Origin: the human T2T-CHM13v2.0 reference genome, Homo sapiens
Reading direction: 5' to 3' (one strand)
DNA: 64,000 nucleotides
Assembly (NCBI RefSeq): GCF_009914755.1
Contig: NC_060925.1
Shown here one piece after another: positions 6,520 through 54,900 of the stretch. Under the pieces are notes generated by a model. It saw only the letters and a list, made by a program, of their open reading frames with translations, had not been told where the DNA came from and did not search any database. Position numbers and translations under genes: made by a program. Position 1 is the first letter of the stretch. Every line of letters begins with the position of its first letter.

Positions 6520-9500
6520 GTTGGTGCTGAGAGTGATTGGTGGAAGAGATGCTGCGACGAGATTTTGGAGCTTGCTTACCCACCATCTGATGGCAACAAA
6601 AACCCAATCACTGGTAGCAGGTGGAACACAGATAGTCCCTGATTCGTGGTGCAATTGTTAAAACTTCTACCAGTTTTAAAAGAGAAGGCACACTAGTGGA
6701 AGATAATGCATCAGCTGGTTGATGTATTAGGCTTTTATGAGATATGGAAGAAATAGTAGCTATAAGTAGAATGCAATTGGGTGGCCATTGCTAAATCAAA
6801 CTGACCTCTGGAAAAAGATAACAAGAAGTCAAGAGTGTTTAATCAATGACAAGCTTACTATGAAAGTCAAAGGGCTTCTTTGGAAGGAAACAAAGATGCT
6901 CTGACCTCCTACAGTGGGAGGGCAGAGAAAGCTAAGGACCAAGCGTAGGACTTCATTGGAAGAGTAGCATAAATCCAAAGAAAGTTAAATTCCTAACCAA
7001 GGAAGGTCAGCTATGCCAAGCTCAGGGCCTTGGCAAGAAAGAATGTGATCCTGACACATGGGACATCTATACATCTATGTTGATGCACCTGCAAAAACTA
7101 ACTCCCAGATCCTCTGAACCCTCTGAGCCTAAGGAAGTAGCCCTTCTTTAAGAACTAGCATTTCTCCTTTGCTTGTTACAGAGGCAAGGGAGGATGACCC
7201 ACAGCCCTCTCTCCAAGATGAAATGTGTTCCTCTCCAGCAATGCCTCACCTTCCCTCCCAGTCACTACGCAAATAATAAGTGTAAAATTACACCACAGCC
7301 TAGCTGGAGACATGCTGGGCTTGATAAACAGGAAAGGGAGTATATCCCAAAGAAGCCACAAGACATAGCTAGCATGTAATGACAGAGTCTGGGATAATAC
7401 ACATGGGACTGGATTCTGGGGATGCTTTATCAAGGAAGTTGAACATAATGTTTGATAAGGAAGAGCTTATCAATTTGGGAGCACTTTCTCGGGATATAAG
7501 ATTTAACACCCTGGAAAGGATTTTGGAAGATGATGTGAGCATGCTACTAGAATAACACCTATAAGCATGGTAAAAATGATGATCCACACAACACGAACTG
7601 GAATAACTATGACATATGGTGAAAGGAAGGAATGAAAGACTCAAAGAAGTGGGCCGTAATAAAGTGGATATATTCTTCAAGGCCAAAACCACAACTAGAG
7701 GACTATGTTCCATGGGAGAGTCCAAATGATACACCATTTACCAAAGTAATAAAGAATACACTAGTGAGATGGGCACCACTGTCACTAAGCAGTTTAGTGG
7801 TGCCTCGCCTCTGCAGGCCAGAGCTGACAGTTGGAGATTCAATTACAGGATTGGGCTCACAAATAATCAGGCGATAATAAGACCTGAAACATTAAAGACC
7901 AGATGCCAGAAGCCATATGGATTCAATTACGTTGAGTGACAAAGTCAGAAGAACTGCCAGGGGGCCTGACCTACAGAGGATATGGAGATGGTTAATTGTG
8001 TATGACATTCCTGAGGGGGAAATAGATGAGTAGTCAAAAATAATACTAGTCAATACACCCAATCAAAAAAATGAAGGACAGATGAAGTGATACTTTGTGA
8101 AGATGAGAAGGAAGAAATAGGGAAGTCACTCCAATAAAACGTTACAATTAAAACTTGCCCAGTTTCCAAGCCTAAGCTAGGTTTCAGACCCAGAATCCAC
8201 TGACTAAGAGATGGTGAGCCACAGGAAGAAGGACCCTATAACCAAACAAGTGTACATAATAATGATTGCCCCTTAGGGACTATTTTAACTGAAAACACTT
8301 TTGAAACAAAACGTGTGGGATTCTTCACCCATGCCAGCCAATTTAAAGACACCAGCTGGGTGTCCTGCAATTTAATTCAATTCTGACACTATGTACCTAG
8401 AGTTAGCATCAAATCCTACAAGTTAAGGACTCAGTTTCACAAGATCGCCCTTACTTCAGATGCTAATCACCAGTCCCATGCCTCCCATCATAAATTGGGG
8501 GTTCCATGACTCCATCCTCAGGTTTAATAATTTGCTATAACCACCCACAGAATTCAGGAAAATAGTTTACTTGCTATTACTGGCTTATTAGAAAGGACAC
8601 AACTCAAGAATTGCCAAATGGAAGTGATGCATAATGCAAGATATGGGGAGGGAGAAAAGTGTGCAGAGCATTCATGCCCTCTCTGGACATGCTCCCTCGA
8701 AGTGGCTTAATATGTTTGCCAACTCAAAATCTCTCCAAGCTCTGTCATTTAAGGGTTCTATGGAGATTCCATTACATAGGCACGATTGATTAAATCATTG
8801 GCCATTGGTTATTGCACTCAATCTCCAACCCCTCTTCCCTCCCTGGAGGCTGGGGGATAGAGCTGAAAGTTCCAAACCTATAATCACATGGTTCGTTCTT
8901 CTAGCCACCAGCCTCTGATCTGAAACTATCCCGGGGCCCACCAAGAGTCAGCTCATTAGCATAAACTCAGATATAGTTGAAAAGGGCTTATTAGTAATAA
9001 CAAAGATTCTCCTTTCACTCCGATCACTCAGGAAACAGTGAGGGTTTTAGGAGCTCTGTGGTGGGAACCAGAGAGGAAGACCAAATATATATATTTTTTA
9101 TAGCACAATATCCCACCCCTAAACTGACCTTCAGCCATTTACTCGAGTGGCAGTACACTGAAGAAAGATTACCCAAACACTGAGAAGGCTCTTGAACCCA
9201 GGGTCTGGGTTGACACTGATACCTGGAGACCCAAGGTCATATTATAGTCCTCTGCTAGCATGAGGATATAGAGGGACAAGGCAATAAATGTAGTCCTAGC
9301 CTAGTTTCAGGTAACAGTGGGTCCATTAAGTTCTTGGACCTACCTAATATTCATTTTCTCAGTCCCCACATGTACAATTAGTATGTACACACCTAGCAGT
9401 TGGCATAGCTGACACAGGGAATGCTCTGCCTATAAGACAAGAGCTATTATGGTGGGGAAGGCCAAGTGAAAGCCTCTGAAATTGTTCCACACTCTAAGGC

Positions 9501-11403: not shown

Positions 11404-14183
<2,780 letters not shown>

Positions 14184-14619
14184 GCATTCCTCCTAAAATG
14201 TGACAAATTAACTACTTGCTTTTTGTCAGGTTCCCTTCCTAACTTGCTCTCATATTCTACTTGCCTGAATAGAGAAAGAACTGAAAGTTCTGCTTGCACT
14301 ATTATTTGTGAGATAATAAAAATTCTAATTTTAATCAAAATAATTTTCTATGTAGATGGGCCAGAATAAGTTGATTGAATATGAAGCTTGGGATCTCATA
14401 TAATTTAATAAAACTGTATTGATCCAGCCTGAGTGTAGGAAAGAGCTTCTACTTATCTGAAGGCTGTGGTGGTGACAGCAGCAGCGGCAGCCTGACATGG
14501 TACTTTAACTTGCAACATAGTTGTCTGGGACATTGAAGTAGCAGCATTTTAATTACCAATTGTAGATGGCAGTTAGAAATTCATGTATCTCAGTATTTTT
14601 TGGGCTGCATGATCACTAA

Positions 14620-20221: not shown

Positions 20222-20422
20222 ACTTACTCAGCGTCAAAAGATGCTATTAACGCTGAGCCGGCATCATTTTTCATCTTAAAGAGGGCACTAAATAAGCACA
20301 GTAAATTCATACCAGTGAACCTACATGTACTAGCCATAAAATAGCACATTGTTCAGGTTGAATTCCTTTATTAATGCTTATTCTTTGAGTCAATTGGCCA
20401 ATAACTTTGCCAAATTGTTAAT
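20222..20422. promoter_or_regulatory. Candidate conserved cis-regulatory module, copy 1 (paralog of 34684-34877)
   Basis: Block-wise identity to copy 2; AP-1 TGAGTCA 20386-20392, TGGCCAA/TGCCAA NFI half-sites, CATAAA. Confidence 0.55.
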
Positions 20423-25815: not shown

Positions 25816-27683
25816 TTGGTATCATCAAATCTGGTTCCTGGTACAGTCCCCAGCAGGCAGCAATGAAACTTCATACTAAAGCCACTAATAGAAATTACAT
25901 ACTGGGGGATTTCCAATGAAATTGCTAATGGGGAAACTGCCTATATTAGATGACCAAATATGCTGTTCTGGGTCATTAAAATTGTATTATGCATACGCTA
26001 AGGTTGGGATTGGCTGCAGCATTATAGAGGGCTGCTAATCTGATCACTAGACCATGTTCAGTAAATTTGTTCAGGGATGAGCTAAAGATAAAAGTATAAA
26101 TCCAGCTGTAAATAAGGAAATAATTGGACTGCCTGAATCAGTTGATGGGAGTCTCTGGCCAGCTGGAAACCTTTAAAAAATGTATTTTTCATAAAATATT
26201 TCATACATTCAAAAAAGGATGTATAATGAATGCCTAAGGTATAAAGAATAATTAAGTGAACATCCTTGTGCCCACAGCCAGCTTAAGAAATAGAAAATTA
26301 CTAATTCTGGTAAAGCCCTTGATATTCTTCTCCATTACTTTTTTATTTCCCTTCCTCTACCAGAATTATGGTTTTAAAAAATAGTAGTAATGATCCACTA
26401 AGTATTATCGCTTTTAAAAATAGCATTATTACATGTGCATATAACCCAAAATTATAAACTACTGATTTTTATACATCTAAACGTTATGTAAGTGAAATCA
26501 TGCTCTGTGTATCTTTTGTGATTTGTTTTCTTCGCTCCACATTATGTTTTTTATTCTTATCCATGTTGAAGCATGTAGTCGTATTCAATCATCTTTACTG
26601 CTGTATAGTATGCAATTTATTGATACATTCTTCTGTCAATGGACATTTGGGTAAACATAGTAGGAATATTGTTATACAATGTGCACATAAGCAAGAACCT
26701 CTTTACAACACATACCTAAGAATGAAATTGCTAGGTAATAGGATATGATTTTCTTCAAATTAAAAAAAAATGCCAAATAATTTTCCAAAGTGATTATACA
26801 TTTACAGTCCCACAACGTCTAAGTGTCTCACATTCTCATCAACACTTACCCAGTTTTACCAGTCTGATAAGTATAAGATGATAATTTACTGTTGTATTAC
26901 TTTGCATTCTTCTGATTACTAATTAGGCTGGATATTTTCTTCAGATATTCACTAGCATCAGGGTTTCTTGTTCTGTGAAATGTTTTTCATGTCTTGTGCT
27001 CATTTTTCTCTTAGGTTTCTTTTTATTTTTCTCTTTTCTGATAAGCACATAATTTTTTGTCAGTATGATCGAATGTATTGCTTTTTAAATTTATGATTTA
27101 TGTTTCATGTGAGTTGTTTAAAAATACATCCCTACTCTGAGGTAAATGAAGATTTTTTTCCTATATTCTCTTTTAAAAGTTTAAAGATTTATTTCGCTTT
27201 TAAACTTTTAATTCACCTGAAATAGATATGTTTAGAATATGAAGTAGAGTTCCAATTTCACTTGTTTCCACACGGATAGTCGGTTGTCCTAGCACCATCA
27301 GTTGTACAGTCCATTTCTTCCCCTTGGTGTGCAATGCGAGCTCCCTGGGTAATAAGCTTCCATAGATGGGTTAGTCTGTTCCTGCTCTGTATTCTGTTTG
27401 GGTGATCTCTTTATGTACCCACATAGGAAGCTAATATAAAGCTTTATCATAAGTCTCCACAGCTGGTAGTTCAAGTTTTCCACATTTTTCTCTTTTTAGG
27501 ATGTTCTTTGCTATTTGTTTGGGCTTCCCTCTTTCATATACATATTAGATGGCATCTACCAAGTTTCATAAAGAATTCAATTTATATTTTAACAGATCAA
27601 TTATGGGAGATCTGATCACTTTATCTAGGAACACTTCATGTCTCCATTTACTTAGGTCTTCTTTTCAGAAAAATTGTGGAGTT

Positions 27684-29231: not shown

Positions 29232-31139
29232 CTGTGTTATATATCTATAGTATACATTAGATCTTCTATTTGGACGATTGTTATGCTGTCTCTGAATAAT
29301 CAGTTTTCCTACCATGGCAATTTTTATCTCTTTTTCCTGCCTTCCACCAATGGCTGGAGCCTCCAGTACAATGTTGAATAAAAATAATAATACTTGGCTT
29401 GAAAAAATTAGAATGTTTCAATAACGTTCTTACACAGGAGTCATGCTAATATTCTTGGACTTACTCCATTGTTAGTACATGTGCTGCCAAAGGGAGATAC
29501 AGACAAACTCTGCTCTCCTAGGTAGCAATTGACCACTCCCCGGTGGACCTGCAAGGACCTGAGGAAAAGACTGTGCAGGTGGGGTCTGTTTTCTGAAAAG
29601 AGAGAGACTGCCTCCAGGACAAGAAGTTCTAGCCCTTGGACTGGAATCATCCTTTTCACAATTGACTCCCTCTGGCCCATCCCCTTGAATATACTCTGCA
29701 TCTCATAAGTAACCATGAGATTTGTCTTGTGTTCCCTTACTTTAACCACCTTGAAGAGTGAGCAACATTTCTGCCACACAATGAGCAGAGATCCCAGGAG
29801 AATAGATTCTCAATCCTCCAGAGGACCACATTTGCAGTAGGTACTAACACACCTGATTATTTTGCCAGCCCCAGGTGTGTCATCTTTATTACCTAAGTAA
29901 CCAAGTGAATGTACTTGGGCTTTTCAGCATGCAGTGTTTTGCCTTTCTTTCTAAATCCCTATTACACAACTTGGAATTTCAGCAGCCAAAGGCAGGTTTT
30001 GGTCCATGCTCATTTTTCTGGTTTCTAAGATTGAAATTGAGCACATCAGTGTTAACTCTGCTGGCTATATAATTTAATGCATAAACCTGGACACTTTTGA
30101 GAGTGGAAAGAGGTGCTAAATACATAAGGTGGCTGAGCATAGGTATAAACCGGGCCTCCCCTGAGCAAACTAGGGTATGCAACCACTCCAGATATAATAC
30201 TTTCCTAAGTCCTTTTTCTTTCTGTAGCTCCTCTCCCACGTAGCATTTCTGCCTGTTATATTTCATCCCTATTTCAAACATTCCTCAGTTCTATTTTGGG
30301 AGGGATTCACCCAACCACTGTCCAACCTGTTAGTCCTCTTGAAAACAGTGAAGCCACAAATGAGGTATAGCTCAAGTACCTCAAGTAAAATGATTTCAAA
30401 GAACCTCTGACTGACCTCTAATGCTGTTCCACATCCTTTGTAGTACTACAAAAGATAAGCCTCTAATCTTCTCATCTGCACTCTTCTTTCTAAATTGTAC
30501 TATCCAAATGTCCTGTTACAGCAAACAGCATACATTACTTAAACACACATACATACACATAAAATAAAACAAAAATGATGCCTTTATCCCTGATCAGGGA
30601 AATTTGCTATAAGTGGCACCACATCAAAATGTTCTTGGGTCATGTTTTTTGTGCTTTATTGGTGACACTCAAAGTAAAGCATTTCAGTTCTTTTCAAAGA
30701 TCATTTAGTTGAGTTTCTAGCTTATTCCACCAAAGTGGCAGGCATGCTGGGCTGCTTGTCTCAGAATGCCTCTGCCACAAGCCAACATCATTCTACACCA
30801 CAGTTATTATTTATTAATTGCATTTTAATTGGTCTAGCTATTGCCAGCTAATGAGGAGATGACTATCAAATGTGACAGATATGAACTTAAAAGAGTGGAG
30901 TAGGGACTACATAGAAATGGCCAATTTGAGAACGGGCTTCTCTGAAAAAGGCAATATAACTTTCAGAAGCCACATTTCCTGATACTCCAAAATGGTCTCC
31001 TGATGGTCTCCAGTTTTATATTTGCACAGGAAATTATGTTTATCTGCCAGAAGGATGGCTCCAAAGAGTCAGATTCAAGACTTGCACTGAGTCTAGTGTT
31101 CTATAGGTACATGGAGAATGACACACTCACAAAATAGCA

Positions 31140-31850: not shown

Positions 31851-33599
31851 GCATCCCCAGAATGACTCAGATTTCCTTGGGGTTAGAGACTATGATTATT
31901 CATCTTAGTGACTCCCTCTTCCCAGCAGGACATTGCATGATGTCTGGCTCATTACGGGCATTTAAAGATACATATAACATATAAAGGAATGAAGTGTCAA
32001 TCTTACCAAGACATTATGTTTTTTAAAAACATGGATCTAAATCATAAAGGAAATATGTTCAAGTGGTGTAGTTGGAGTATCATAAGAAGATAGAGAAAAA
32101 TTTAGGAAGTTTTCAGTATCTCACTAGAATTCCTAAAATTGGACGAGCTAATAATAACTAACATTTTCTGTGCTTGTGCTGTGTGCTAGCCAATGTCCTT
32201 GGTGTTTCATTTAGCATCACACTTAATCTTCACAAATCCTAAGAGTACATACCATTATTATGACTAGTGTCCATTTAGGGATACGAGGGAACCATTAGTA
32301 ATCTTTGTCACATTAAACTAAAATTATGTGTTATCAGCATTTACAGAGGCCTTTAATTTAGTATTCTATTAAGTCTGACCACCCTTCAAGGCTTGGCAAC
32401 ACTGGGAACATTCTACTGCATGGACGTATAGTAGTTACAATTCCCACTATTTGTGAGATGAAAACATGTCATTAGAATGTTACTAATGTTGTCTTGAATG
32501 ACCAGGATTTTCCAAGGCTGCTATCCTTGCTTTTAAATTAGCATTAGTTTAATTTCATTGTTTTTACTTCAAAGTTTTTATCAGTTAATTAACTCTAAAT
32601 TTGATCATGGCATTTTTGGCTTATAATTTTTCAGTAACTAACATGGAAGAGTTTGACTGTGGTTTTTATTATTTTGTTCTTCTCCAATTTTTTGTCACCG
32701 TGGAGTATTTTTTACACTAGAAATTGGAAATGGATAAGGTATATGAATCAAGGAATCTTTTGATCCACCTAAGCAGGCTTCAGTCAAAGATTAAAAAAAA
32801 GAAAAAAATGACCTAGAAGAAGGCTGCTAAACGAATACCATCCATAACCACCTCCTGCTCTCACAGCTGGCATTGCTAATTAGTCATGGCACTCTTCTCA
32901 CTGAGCTAAAGTGCAGCTTCAGAATCCTTCTTAACTCAGCATTCTAGATAGCATGTGAGTAGAGAGTCAAACCCTATTTTCAATCTCTATCTTATAGCTA
33001 TTACTCTAATCTTTGATTGGAAAAAATCTGCAACATAATTATTGCTTGTAAGTTATTGTTTTGCCTGCCACACTTAGGACTATCCAGCATAATCAACATC
33101 ATCATTACCATAGCCATGTTTAGGCATCATGCTAAGGGCTTCATATGTTATCTCCTTTAGTTCTCACAGTAGCCATATGAGGCAAGTACAACCAACAACC
33201 ACTTTGTGATAGTTTCGTATTTTAATTCTCAGAAGTGAATCTTATTTCCAAGCTATTGACTTCACTGTAGTCTCCAGATCCTAACAACTAATGGTATCTC
33301 AGTCTTTGGGCAAAGGATGAAGACCCTAGAAGAATATTCTGGAAAAGCTTCAAATAGCAAATGTCTAAGCAGTCCTGAAAAAATATGAATACAAGATCAA
33401 TGAACAAAGCATATTTGTAAAAGATAAGAAGGCTATATAGTGGAAATGTTTTAAGGCAGGCAAAGTTAGAGCTGAAATTAAGCCTCTAGTTATAATATAG
33501 ATAAAAAACAGAAATATTCGCACAAGTGTGCATTATATCAGGGAATATGACAAGTTGTTTCATCACAGCTTATCTCCACAACTATCTAGAAGGTAAGTA

Positions 33600-33942
33600 C
33601 AATTTGAGCATCACTTATCCAAAACACTTGGGACCAGCATTGGATTTCAGATTTTTTCAGATTTTGGAATATTTGTGTATAAGCTATTTTGGGGATGAGA
33701 GCCAACTCTAACTGTGAAACTTATTTATGTTTCATATAAACCTAATACACATAGACTGAAGGTAATTTGTTCAGTATTTTTAATAGTTTTGTGCCTGAAA
33801 CAAAGTTTTGACTACATTTTGACAGCTACTCATGAGGTCAGATGTAGAATGTTTTACTTGCATTGTCATGTTGGTGCTCAAAAAGTTCCAGATTTTGAAA
33901 CATTTTGGATTTTGGATTTTCTGATTAGGGATACTCAGCTTG
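33600..33942 (+). mobile_element. Tigger4b-like (TcMar-Tigger) non-autonomous DNA transposon inserted in a MIR
   Basis: TIRs caatttgagcatcacttatccaaaa / ttttctgattagggatactcagcttg; preceded by TA. Confidence 0.8.
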
Positions 33943-34084
33943 CATTATTAGCTCCTTCTACAAAGAAGAAAAACAGAATTCAGTGAGATTAAGTCACCTT
34001 TCAAAGTCTTACGATCAGGAACCAGGATTCAAACCAATTTACCTTTCCCCACTCTGATGAGTAACTAACGTGGAAGAGCTTCAG

Positions 34085-34136: not shown

Positions 34137-34683
34137 GAATATCTCGAGATAAAATGGGCTGTTGGAGGCGCAGAGTTCTCACAGTGAAAATGTTTTTCAA
34201 GCTAGAAAACTCCTTGGTATTGGTTTCAAGACTGAGATTCTGTGAGTCCATAAATGTAAGCAGTAAAGCCACCATCCATGCCCCCAAAAAAAAAAAATTC
34301 ATTATTTTGTTGCTTGATGAGGCAACCTGAGGGGAAAAAAAAACTAACGTCAGCCCCATGTAATTTTTTGCTGGGTTCAAAATGCACTGACATTACAATT
34401 CAGATCCACTAGGTCCTACAGTTTGGGAGTGACAGACTTAAGAACAAGATCTAAGCAAATTTTTTAAGTGTTAAGTGTAGGGTTAAGTGTTGAAGAGGAA
34501 AAAAGAGATCCATTCTTTGAGCACTTTTGTCCAATACTTCTTTAATCAAATATTTCTCCTCTCTAATAGAAAAAACTCTTATCCTTTCTCACCCAAAGTA
34601 CAGGTGCCAAGGGCCATCATCATTCATTTTACCCCATTGTATTGTCATCAGACAAATAATGCTAGTGATTATTTCTGCTCAAG

Positions 34684-34877
34684 ACTTGCCAGTGAAAAAT
34701 GCATCAGGAAATGTCAGCCTTCCATTTTTCATCTTAAAGACGACAACACTAAATAAGAACAGAAATTCACACAGGTAAACCCATCTGTGCTGAGCATAAA
34801 GCCACACAGTCTTCAAGATGAATTATTTCAGTGTGTGAGCCTTTGAGTCAGATGGCCAACTTTGCCAAATTATTAAT
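34684..34877. promoter_or_regulatory. Candidate conserved cis-regulatory module, copy 2 (paralog of 20222-20422)
   Basis: Block-wise identity to copy 1; AP-1 TGAGTCA 34844-34850, TGGCCAA/TGCCAA. Confidence 0.55.
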
Positions 34878-36430
34878 GCGTTGGGTGTTTTTATCTTCTC
34901 TCAGAAAGAGACTGAATTCAGAAGGAAGTTCTCACTTATACTCCCTTAGAATCTGAAATTTAAATCTTGGGTTTCAATGGCTAGATTTTTCTGACAATTT
35001 GAAAGCAATCCGGGTTTAGAGAGTCTGTATCCTTTTTCTTGTTGTGCTACATTCAAAAAATGTGTCTCCTGTCAATCTCCTAACCAGTGGGCAGCTCCAG
35101 CATAATATGCTTCTTCATTTTCCCCCACCCTCTGCAATAATAACATTGGTCAAACTTCATTGAACTCTCTCACTTACTTGGCATTACAGACATTGCAGGG
35201 AAGTATAAGATCACTATGAGGGTCAGGATTAGGAATCTGTTCATTTTTCCTATGCTGCACTTGGTCTTAATTTTTTTTAATTGAGGACAAATATCCTTCC
35301 CTTCATAAAATACTTCTCTAAATGAAGTGCAACTTATAAAAAAATAAAATGTTTTAAGTTCCTCCCCCAGCAAGCAAATTTAAAAAAATAATTACTTTTA
35401 TACTTATTTAACAAGTAGATTGCTCAATTTTAGTATTATAGCCATTTTAAAAAGCAATCTTTTCAGAATTATTTGTCAAGTCTTCCATTTTATGCCATAT
35501 ATAATAAGACTTAAAATTAGGAGCTTACGCATAAAAATTAGTCTTAAACATAATTACCCAATTCTTTATCCCCTAAATACTCTCTTTAATTATTTTCTTA
35601 TCACAAGAGCAATATATGCTTCTTGGAAAAGTTTTGCTTAAAAATAAAATTCACCCATAGTCCATCATGTAGAGTTAAGCTCTGCTGATATTTAAGTGTA
35701 GATGTCACTTTCACTTTTCCCTAGGAATTAACATATAGATAATGCATTCACTGGATGTGGGCAGAAGAAACCTAATTGAAGTAATTAAAGCAAAAGGGAG
35801 ATTTATGATAAGAATAGCAGAATGTCTCCCTGACCTCACAGTAAAAAATGCACCAGGCCTTAGAATCAGACTTAAACACTGCTGGGAATTGGGAAAATAT
35901 CTGTTCTCTGCATTCTTCACCTCTCTTTCCTCTCACCCTGTGGCAAAAATAAAAATAATAATAATAATAAAAATAATAATGGTTAGTAACAACATCTTGT
36001 TATTTTAAATCTCCCTCTGCTTAAGATAACTGCCAGACTGAGACCGTACATTCTTCGTCACAATCCCAAAACCCTCTGGGTAGGAAATGAGGATTGGTCA
36101 GAGAACCCATCACTGATTTAGTCAGCTGTGGACAGGGCCGTGCACATATTCTATAAATATGACTGCCTCCATTGAAAGTGTCTGTCTGGGCTGAAGGGGG
36201 ACAGGAAACAGAAAGGAGACATTACTCTGAGCTAGGGAGATAACCACAGATATTCACCGGTGATAGATTTGACATCTTTATTTTGCGAAAGTGAAAATAA
36301 CCACATGTATTGTTTTGTAACTTTCTCCCCTCACTTAATACAAAATGGCTAATGTTCAAATGAGCTTCCTTCATTTCCCCTTTATTTTTGTTATTAATGA
36401 AACTTTCTCTGTATATTTGTTTCCCTAATG

Positions 36431-51938: not shown

Positions 51939-54900
51939 CACCACTCTTTTTATTCATTCGTCTCTCTATAGATACTAATATTGTTTCCATATGTCAACTA
52001 TTGTGAATAATGCTGTAATAAACATGGAAGTGCAGACATCTCCATTTCCACTCAGTATCTTTGAGATAATGATTTCATTTACTTTGGCTATACACCCAGA
52101 AGTGGAATTTCTAGATCATATGGTAGTTCTATTTTTAATTTTTGGAGGAACCACCATACAGTTTTCCATAATGGCTAAACCAATTTACACTCCTATCAAC
52201 AGCAAATAAGGGTTCCCTTTTCTCCACATTCCTGCCAACACTTATCTTTTGCCATTTCAGCAAACGTGAGGTGATATCTCATTGTGGTTTTGATGATGAT
52301 CAGAGATGTTGAGTACTTTTTCATATACCTGTTGGCCATTTACATGCCTTTGAGAAATTATCTATTCAGGTCCTTAGCCCATTTTGTAATCTGTTTTTTG
52401 TTTTGTTTTGTGTTTTTTTGCTATTGAGTTTTTTAATTCCTTATATACTTTGGATTTTAACCCCTTATCAGGTGTATGGTTTATAAATATTTTCTGCCCT
52501 TCCCATATTGCCTTTTCATTCTGCTGATAGTTTTCTTTGCTGACCATAATAAGCTTTTTAGTTTGGTGTAATCTCATTTGTCTATATTTGCTTTTGTTGC
52601 CTGTACTTTTGCTGTCATATCCAAAAAAATCATTGCCCAGTCCATTGTCAAGAAGCTTTTTCCCTATGTTTTCTTCTAGTCGTTTATAGTTTCAGGCCTT
52701 ATGTTTGAGCCTTTAATCCATTTTGAGTTCATTTTTGTATATGGTATGATAAGGGTCCAATTTCATTCTGCATGTGGATATCCAGTTTTCCCAATATCAT
52801 TTATCGAAGAGACTAGTGTGTGCTCTTCCCTTCCCTAGTGTGTGTTCTTGGCACTTCTGTAAAGATCAAGTGACTTTAAAGGCATAGATTTATTTTGGGA
52901 TCCGTATTCTGTTCCATTTAGTTCATATGTCTTTTTTTATAATGCCAGTATCATGCCATTTTGATTAATGTAGCTTTGTAATATGTTTTAAAATCAGGGA
53001 GAGTGATGCTTTCAGCTTTATTCTTCTTGTTCAATATTACTTTGTCTATTCATGGTCATTTTGGGATCTATATGAATTTTAGAATTTTCTTCTATGTATT
53101 TAAAGATAGCCATTGGGATTTTGATAGGAATTATATAGAATCTGTAGATCACTTTGGGTAGTATGAACATTTTAACAATATTCTTTCTTAATCCATGAAC
53201 TTGGATGTCTTTCCATTTATCCGTGTCTTCTTTAATTTCCTTCACTAATGTTTTACACTTTCAGTATACAAATCATTCAACTCTCAGGTTAAATTTATTC
53301 CTAAGTATTTTAATTTTTATTGCTATTGTGAACAGGATTTATTTCTTAATTTTCTTTTCAAATATTTCATTGTTAGTGTATAAAACTAAACTAATTTCAC
53401 ATTTTGATTTTTGTATCCTGCAACTTTATGGAATTTATTATCTAACAGTTTTATGTTGAGTCTTTAATATTTTCTTCATATACAATCATGTCATCTGCAA
53501 ACAGAATTTTTCTTGTTCCTTTCTTTCAGCTTGAAATAAACTATTATACAATGTCACTTCTTCCTTTCTGGTTCAGATTTTTTTTCCATTTTTCTATTTT
53601 CAGATGTTTATTTCTATTTATTTGGTCTAATTGCACTGGCTAGAACATCCAGTACTTTGTTGAATGTAAGTGGTGAGAGTGGGAATCCCTGCCTTGTACT
53701 GGATCTTAGAGGGAAAGCTTTCAATTTTCATTGATAATGTTAGCCATGGGCTTTTCATATATGGCCTTTCTTGTGTTGAGATAAGTTATTTCTATTTTGT
53801 TGAGAGTTTTAATTATTAATAGATGCCACACTTTGTCAAATACTTTTTCTGTGTCTATTGAGATAATCGTTGTTTTTTTTCTTTCATTTTGTTAATGTGG
53901 TGTATCACATTGATTTATTCATGCATATTGAACCATCCCTGCATCCCAGGGATGAATCCTCCTTGGCCATGATGTATAATCCTTTTAATGTGCTATTTAA
54001 TTTGGTTTGCTAGTGTTTTACTGAGGATATTTGCATCTATGTTCATCAGTAAGTTTTCTTCTGGTGTCTTTGTCTGCGTTTAGTATCAGTGATGCTAGTC
54101 TCATAAAATGAGTTTGAAAGTATTCCCTCTTCTATTTTTATAAAAAGTTGAAGAAAAATCACCATTAATTCTTTAATGTTTAGGAGAATTCACTCATGAA
54201 GCCATCTGGTCCTATGCTTTTTTTTGTTGTTGGGAGGTTTTTGTTTCCCATTTCAGTCTCCTTATTTGTCGTTGGTCTGTTCAGACTTTCTATTTCTTCT
54301 TGATTGAGTTTTGTTAGAATGTATGTTTCTAGAAATTTATCCTTTTCTTCTAGGTTATCCAATTTGTTGGCATATAATTCTTCATAATAGTCCCTTATGT
54401 TCCTTTTTTATTTCTGAGGCATCTATTGTAAAGTCTCCTCTATCATCTCTGGTTCTATTTATCAGTCTTCTCTTTCTTAGTCTAGCTAAAAGATTGTTGA
54501 TTTTGTTTATTTCTGCAAAAAAAAAATCTTGGTTTGTAGATTTTGTATTTTTTTCCATTTTCTATTTTATTTATTTCTGCACTAATCTTTATTATTTTCT
54601 TTCTTCTACTAATTTAGGGCTCAGTTTGTTCTTTCTTTTCTATGTCATTGAGGTATAAAGTTAAGTTATTTATTTGTAATCTTTCTTCTGTTTTAATGTA
54701 AGCATTTAATGTTATAAATTTCCATCTTAGTACTACTTATGCTGCACTGCATAACTTTTGGTATATTGCGTTTCATTTTTGTTCCTCTTAAGATATTTTA
54801 AATAGTCTTTTTTGATTTTCTCTTTGATTCAGTGATTGCTCAAGAGTGTGTTATTTAGTTGCCACATATTTATGAATGCTTTTATTTTCCTACTGTTGTA

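What the first reader, a model, noticed from the sequence alone, without database searches (positions are those of the whole stretch)
34684..34877. Paralogous block-conserved element pair (copy 2)
This is the second copy of the 20222-20422 element. Relative to copy 1 it has +3 nt after the 18-mer block, lacks 1 nt and about 2 nt in the spacers, and lacks TAA between TGGCCAA and CTTTGCCAA. The last change alters the spacing of the two NFI half-sites, a natural experiment in motif spacing. It lies in ~1.5 kb of apparently repeat-free sequence (34140-35700), consistent with constraint.
Basis: partly seen in the sequence, partly recalled or inferred. Interest (0 to 1): 0.7.

Follow-up and report, generated by a model that had tools for sequence, protein, structure and literature searches.

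The report
Old short local DNA duplication
A 160-200-base stretch of non-coding human DNA has one matching copy 14.5 kb away and no other copy was found in the genome; it is likely an old, small copy-and-insert accident, and nothing here shows that either copy does anything.

Summary
The first 39 bases of its interval align only weakly (P 0.02-0.04). It is not a common repeat: genome-wide BLAST returns only these two places, whereas two control pairs nearby return 404 and 2690 candidates; 0 of 33 other pattern hits show flanking homology. The functional reading is weaker. The 'blocks' are borderline against simulated neutral decay (P 0.013-0.16) and ordinary against real repeat pairs of equal identity (42-77 of 214 are as blocky). 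Neither copy has an NFI dimer site: spacers are 10 and 7 bases, the factor needs 5. No conserved RNA fold, reading frame or flank homology. Best reading: a short local duplication of the 'doublet' / repair-mediated type, about 40-80 million years old if neutral (0.5). Twin enhancers kept by selection remain possible (0.25); no vertebrate alignment or chromatin data could be consulted. New member of a known kind; modest interest.

The parts
34723..34877 (+). Copy 2, core of the duplicated segment
   Evidence: 119/161 identical to 20265-20422; genome-wide BLAST finds only the partner
34684..34722 (+). Copy 2, weakly similar 5' extension (probably part of the same copy)
   Evidence: global score P 0.02 and 0.04 against random pairs
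20265..20422 (+). Copy 1, core
20222..20264 (+). Copy 1, weak 5' extension; holds 3 CpGs and an 8-bp inverted repeat (20227-20257) that copy 2 lacks
   Evidence: such an inverted repeat occurs in 16% of 200-base windows
34723..34740 (+). 18-base identical block, longest run
   Evidence: 77 of 214 control tiles reach 18 or more
34844..34850 (.). AP-1 consensus match TGAGTCA in copy 2 (motif recalled; binding untested)
20386..20392 (.). AP-1 consensus match in copy 1
34853..34868 (.). Two GCCAA (NFI half-site-like) words in copy 2; inverted-pair spacer 7, no full NFI site; overlaps a C/EBP-like match
   Evidence: n5 requirement from PMC12630593
20394..20413 (.). TTGGC and two GCCAA words in copy 1; inverted-pair spacer 10, no full NFI site

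Best explanation
The two stretches are the only two copies found of one 160-200-base sequence, likely made when a short piece of nearby DNA was copied into a chromosome break during repair and then likely left to drift apart by ordinary mutation. Shown: homology, same orientation, 14.5-kb offset, no homology in the flanks, no third copy at the sensitivity reached, K2P distance 0.26 +/- 0.05. Inferred: the repair-capture (SDSA-like) mechanism, from size and closeness alone; an age of about 59 My (37-81) if both copies were neutral at 2.2e-9 per year; and that the shared AP-1 and GCCAA words are simply inherited. One copy may still sit in a regulatory element; which copy is the donor is not known.
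For: Unit length matches repair-mediated duplications (mean 162 bp, median 147; PMC2671141). Genome BLAST gives 2 candidates against 404 and 2690 for control pairs. Profile search of 200 kb upstream: 0 hits, against 4-23 for 5 of 6 control pairs. 0 of 33 non-self pattern hits keep flank homology (scores 22-39; null 99th percentile 39; true partner 98-100). Right edge drops from 0.80 to 0.33 identity; flanks score as random. Transition share 0.58 against 0.61 simulated. Blockiness matched by 42-77 of 214 real repeat-pair tiles. Distance is like that of the LTR-like pair in the same window (K2P 0.30). No RefSeq functional element at either copy (hub annotation).
Against: The 14.3-kb gap is long for this class: 824 of 882 same-chromosome cases lie within 5 kb, and the authors do not call distant ones repair-mediated with confidence; only about 1.1-2.8 kb of the gap is recognisable repeat that could have been added later. 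The 22% divergence exceeds the highest value (about 17%) in the 2 of 15 parts of Table S1 that I read. No junction hallmark is recoverable (shared 6-7-mers at the ends are at chance level), and neither copy visibly interrupts a repeat. Simulated neutral decay gave P 0.038 and 0.013 for the sum of the four longest runs. The left edge fades instead of ending sharply.
Confidence: 0.5

Rival explanations
1. Twin enhancers: an older duplication (short, or a large tandem one whose flanks have decayed beyond recognition) in which both cores are kept by selection as AP-1 plus NFI-half-site or C/EBP modules, most plausibly acting on ST6GALNAC5, whose annotated start lies 38 and 53 kb downstream.
For: Both copies keep TGAGTCA and two GCCAA words; that combination is in 0.17% of local 160-base windows (chosen after the fact). 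Borderline blockiness in simulations (P 0.013-0.16). Fading left edge. Spacing and divergence are atypical for catalogued repair duplications.
Against: Blockiness is ordinary against real pairs. No full NFI site in either copy. No RefSeq enhancer here although others are annotated in the window (hub annotation). No collinear trace of a larger duplication. Listings of searches showed no paper describing an element at this place.
Confidence: 0.25
2. Two relics of a very low-copy ancient transposon or unclassified repeat family (of the UCON/Eulor sort; names recalled), brought close by local hopping.
For: Copy 1 can fold into a long imperfect hairpin (z -1.79), a hint of a palindromic ancestor. 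Pattern searches are insensitive: 7 of 110 trials per copy and pattern on control families, so up to about 11-46 copies could be missed. No repeat library was available.
Against: Copy 2 does not fold better than shuffles (z -0.38); consensus fold is weak (-8.6 kcal/mol, 2 of 28 pairs with double changes); self-reverse-complement scores are ordinary. No terminal inverted repeats, target duplication or poly(A) tail seen. With 50 randomly placed copies the expected number of pairs within 14.5 kb is 0.011.
Confidence: 0.12
3. Two fragments of a common interspersed repeat missed by the masking.
For: Most other two-copy pairs in the window are of this kind.
Against: No further copy by BLAST, by six block patterns or in 264 kb by profile, where controls give tens to thousands.
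Confidence: 0.02
4. Paralogous exons or structured RNAs of a lost gene.
For: None specific.
Against: Stops in all frames, frame-breaking indels; substitutions not tied to one codon position (12/11/10 in copy 1; 14/13/6 in copy 2); 0 of 12 frames reach a Pfam cut-off; no Rfam match at either copy.
Confidence: 0.03

Closest known systems
Repair-mediated duplications (Pace et al. 2009, PMC2671141)
   Same: Two-copy, same-chromosome, closely linked, non-tandem, about 160 bp, no poly(A) tail seen
   Different: 14.3 kb apart (catalogued class under 5 kb), 22% diverged (rows read reach about 17%), no junction hallmarks left, acceptor not seen inside a transposon
'Doublets', short paired duplications (Thomas et al. 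2004; seen only as cited in PMC2671141, the paper itself was not held)
   Same: Unique short local pair
   Different: Those surveys covered near-identical duplicons under 100 bp (as summarised); this pair is longer and far more diverged
Duplicated conserved non-coding elements and regulatory-element families (PMC3595034, listing only; PMC13333887, abstract and one section)
   Same: Paralogous non-coding pair near a gene, with shared transcription-factor-like words
   Different: Those rest on cross-species conservation or open chromatin, neither testable here; they come mostly from whole-genome (recalled) or segmental duplications, while this pair has no duplicated flanks
NFI dimer site TTGGC(n5)GCCAA (PMC12630593)
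   Same: Half-site words present in both copies
   Different: Spacers 10 and 7; at most monomer half-sites, reported as about 100-fold weaker

Membership tests
Repair-mediated duplication | Exactly two copies in the genome | tested here: met
   within a sensitivity that could miss up to a few tens of more diverged copies
Repair-mediated duplication | Length about 50-620 bp, not tandem | tested here: met
   155-200 bp
Repair-mediated duplication | Donor within 5 kb (the authors' confident class) | tested here: not met
   14.3 kb; later insertions explain at most about 2.8 kb that I can recognise
Repair-mediated duplication | Microhomology, filler or deletion at junctions; empty site in an outgroup | not testable with these tools
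   needs orthologous genomes; end words at chance level
Interspersed repeat family | Many dispersed copies | tested here: not met
   controls 31, 44, 45
Interspersed repeat family | Terminal inverted repeats, target-site duplication or poly(A) tail | tested here: not met
   age could have erased them
Interspersed repeat family | Match to a Dfam/Repbase consensus | not testable with these tools
Duplicated conserved non-coding element / enhancer pair | Cross-species constraint at both copies | not testable with these tools
   the genome has no relatives in the tool
Duplicated conserved non-coding element / enhancer pair | Uneven, motif-centred conservation between copies | tested here: inconclusive
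   P 0.013-0.16 in simulation; ordinary against 214 real tiles
Duplicated conserved non-coding element / enhancer pair | Open chromatin or reporter activity | not testable with these tools
   none in the hub's RefSeq table; supplement of PMC13333887 unreadable
NFI dimer site | TTGGC-n5-GCCAA | tested here: not met
Segmental duplication | At least 1 kb at 90% identity or more (definition recalled) | tested here: not met
Structured RNA gene | Conserved fold or Rfam match | tested here: not met

The most novel reading that the evidence does not exclude
An undescribed pair of homologous enhancers upstream of ST6GALNAC5, born by a small local duplication before the mammalian radiation and both kept by selection, giving a clean two-copy comparison of how an AP-1 plus half-site module tolerates spacing changes (including the 3-base change between the two GCCAA words).
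Probability: 0.2. Interest if true: 0.5.

Novelty: new member of a known kind. Interest (0 to 1): 0.25.

Why it matters
If neutral, it is one more old short duplication, somewhat older and wider-spaced than those catalogued, and of little consequence. If both copies are constrained and active, it would be a true sequence-homologous enhancer pair made by small-scale copying rather than by a transposon or a segmental duplication, near a sialyltransferase gene, and the two copies could be compared directly in reporter and deletion tests.

Tried and rejected
Shared hairpin/MITE reading: copy 1 z -1.79, copy 2 z -0.38, weak consensus fold, ordinary self-complement scores; rejected. Coding relic: stops, frameshifts, no Pfam hit at cut-off (one DUF5069 at E 0.18, far under its cut-off); rejected. 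Larger duplication including the MIR-like pieces (name recalled) 700-800 bases upstream of both copies: P 0.09, not each other's best match, intervening DNA random; rejected. Third copy: six block patterns gave non-self/control counts of 0/0, 3/7, 12/0, 11/10, 3/1 and 4/6; the pattern missed copy 2 because its gap range was too short; the 12/0 excess has a reversed control that holds CpGs and an independent-base expectation of 5.2; no places coincide between patterns and none of the 33 shows flank homology (the highest, L055, equals the null 99th percentile). Target-site duplication: chance level. Search of the supplements of PMC2671141 for coordinate prefixes gave no hit, but the older-assembly offset was recalled, so this is weak.

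Full report
Observation. BLAST of the neighbourhoods shows one non-trivial match: 34723-34877 to 20265-20422, direct, 119/161 identical with 9 gap columns. The identity profile in 30-column bins runs 0.60, 0.60, 0.80, 0.70, 0.63, 0.67, 0.80 and then 0.33, against a null of 0.48 +/- 0.08: a sharp right edge and a fading left edge. The unit is therefore 155 to about 200 bases.

Copy number. Genome-wide BLAST with either copy returns 2 candidates, the two copies. The same route returns 404 and 2690 candidates for the two other close two-member pairs in the 264 kb examined, one of them at a like identity of 76%; the five remaining, more distant pairs of the 8 found were not checked. Six patterns from shared blocks gave 33 non-self hits in all, near control or expected levels except 12 against 0, where the reversed control holds CpGs and 5.2 were expected. 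All 33 were fetched; none shows homology outside the matched word (22-39 against a null 99th percentile of 39, true partner 98-100). A control 26-mer from a SINE-like piece gave 179 non-self hits. A two-copy profile finds nothing in 200 kb upstream, where 5 of 6 control pairs find 4-23 hits and a 50-base pair finds none. Sensitivity is limited: such patterns caught 7 of 110 copy-pattern trials in control families, which bounds a hidden family at about 11-46 copies. The tool also warns that counts are lower bounds. The stretch downstream of the window was not scanned by profile.

Is it 'block-conserved'? Runs of 18, 14, 11 and 10 identical bases look striking. Against simulated neutral decay the four measures give P 0.06-0.16 with global alignment (three measures; 468 of 1500 runs kept) and P 0.038-0.134 or 0.013-0.147 with local alignment (687 and 75 of 2500 runs kept). 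Against real repeat-derived pairs at 71.5-76.5% identity over 161 columns, 77, 52, 42 and 66 of 214 tiles reach the observed values (24, 21, 15 and 30 of 83 for lower-copy families). These tiles are not independent and may carry subfamily structure, but they show the pattern is ordinary. Transitions make up 19 of 33 substitutions, as in the simulation. K2P distance is 0.26 +/- 0.05, close to the 0.30 of an LTR-like pair in the window; at the neutral rate quoted in PMC2671141 this is about 59 My (37-81).

Motifs. Both copies carry TGAGTCA followed by two GCCAA words (consensus motifs recalled). NFI binds as a dimer to TTGGC(n5)GCCAA; shorter or longer spacers lose dimer binding and half-sites bind about 100-fold more weakly (PMC12630593, passages). 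The spacer is 10 in copy 1 and 7 in copy 2, and no full site exists in either. The 3-base indel is thus a change between two non-canonical states. The second GCCAA also fits a C/EBP-like word. AP-1 with two half-sites occurs in 0.17% of local 160-base windows, but this was picked after seeing the sequence.

Other readings tested. No Rfam match at either copy; no shared fold; no open frame, codon bias or Pfam family; no inverted termini or target duplication; no collinear trace of a larger duplication. About half of 1.56-kb windows look as repeat-free by my self-comparison, which covers only 23% of the DNA.

Mechanism. A unique two-copy segment of about 160 bases on one chromosome fits the repair-mediated duplications of Pace et al. 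(PMC2671141; I read parts 1-2 of 8 of the text, further passages, and parts 1 and 11 of 15 of Table S1): a broken end copies a nearby template and re-anneals. The fit is by size and copy number only. The distance (14.3 kb) falls in the 58 of 882 same-chromosome cases beyond 5 kb that the authors do not class with confidence, divergence is above the rows read, and junction marks cannot be recovered. So it works like, but fails one membership feature of, that class. I give 0.5 to a short local copy whose likeness is explained by age alone, 0.25 to twin enhancers held by selection, 0.12 to a very low-copy repeat family, and little to the rest.

Literature. Searches (ST6GALNAC5 or LINC02567 with regulatory terms; duplicated non-coding elements) were seen as listings; none named this element. 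PMC9338946 (passages) reports suggestive association signals assigned to LINC02567, not to this place. PMC13333887 (abstract and section 5) clusters open-chromatin elements by similarity on the same assembly; its supplement could not be read and might list these copies. Thomas et al. 2004 was not held.

Verdict. Observation confirmed; functional interpretation unproven and its NFI-spacing part wrong. New member of a known kind, interest 0.25. A multi-species alignment would settle it.

Noticed in passing
window 29402-29500 (-): Degenerate U6 snRNA-like match (35.5 bits, E 3.5e-5, under the gathering score of 44), not in the hub's gene table; probably an old U6 retrocopy.
   Followed up: partly
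window 33558-33949: Repeat shared with a locus 181 kb upstream; includes a mir-1290-like hairpin match at 33861-33936 under its gathering score; probably a DNA-transposon piece (recalled).
   Followed up: partly
window 11404-11805 and 13777-14184: Two LTR-like copies, 71% identical, 2.4 kb apart, of a common family (23 hits in 200 kb upstream); MST/MaLR type by recall; not in the hub's masked list.
   Followed up: partly
window 20227-20257: 8-bp perfect inverted repeat with two CpGs in copy 1 only; such repeats occur in 16% of 200-base windows.
   Followed up: yes
window 8288-9112: Old repeat-like stretch, 65% identical over 885 columns to a locus 195 kb upstream, not in the hub's masked list.
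   Followed up: no
window 27476-27525 and 53582-53628: 50-base pair at 80% identity with no hit in 200 kb upstream; lies among L1-like pieces; not checked genome-wide.
   Followed up: no
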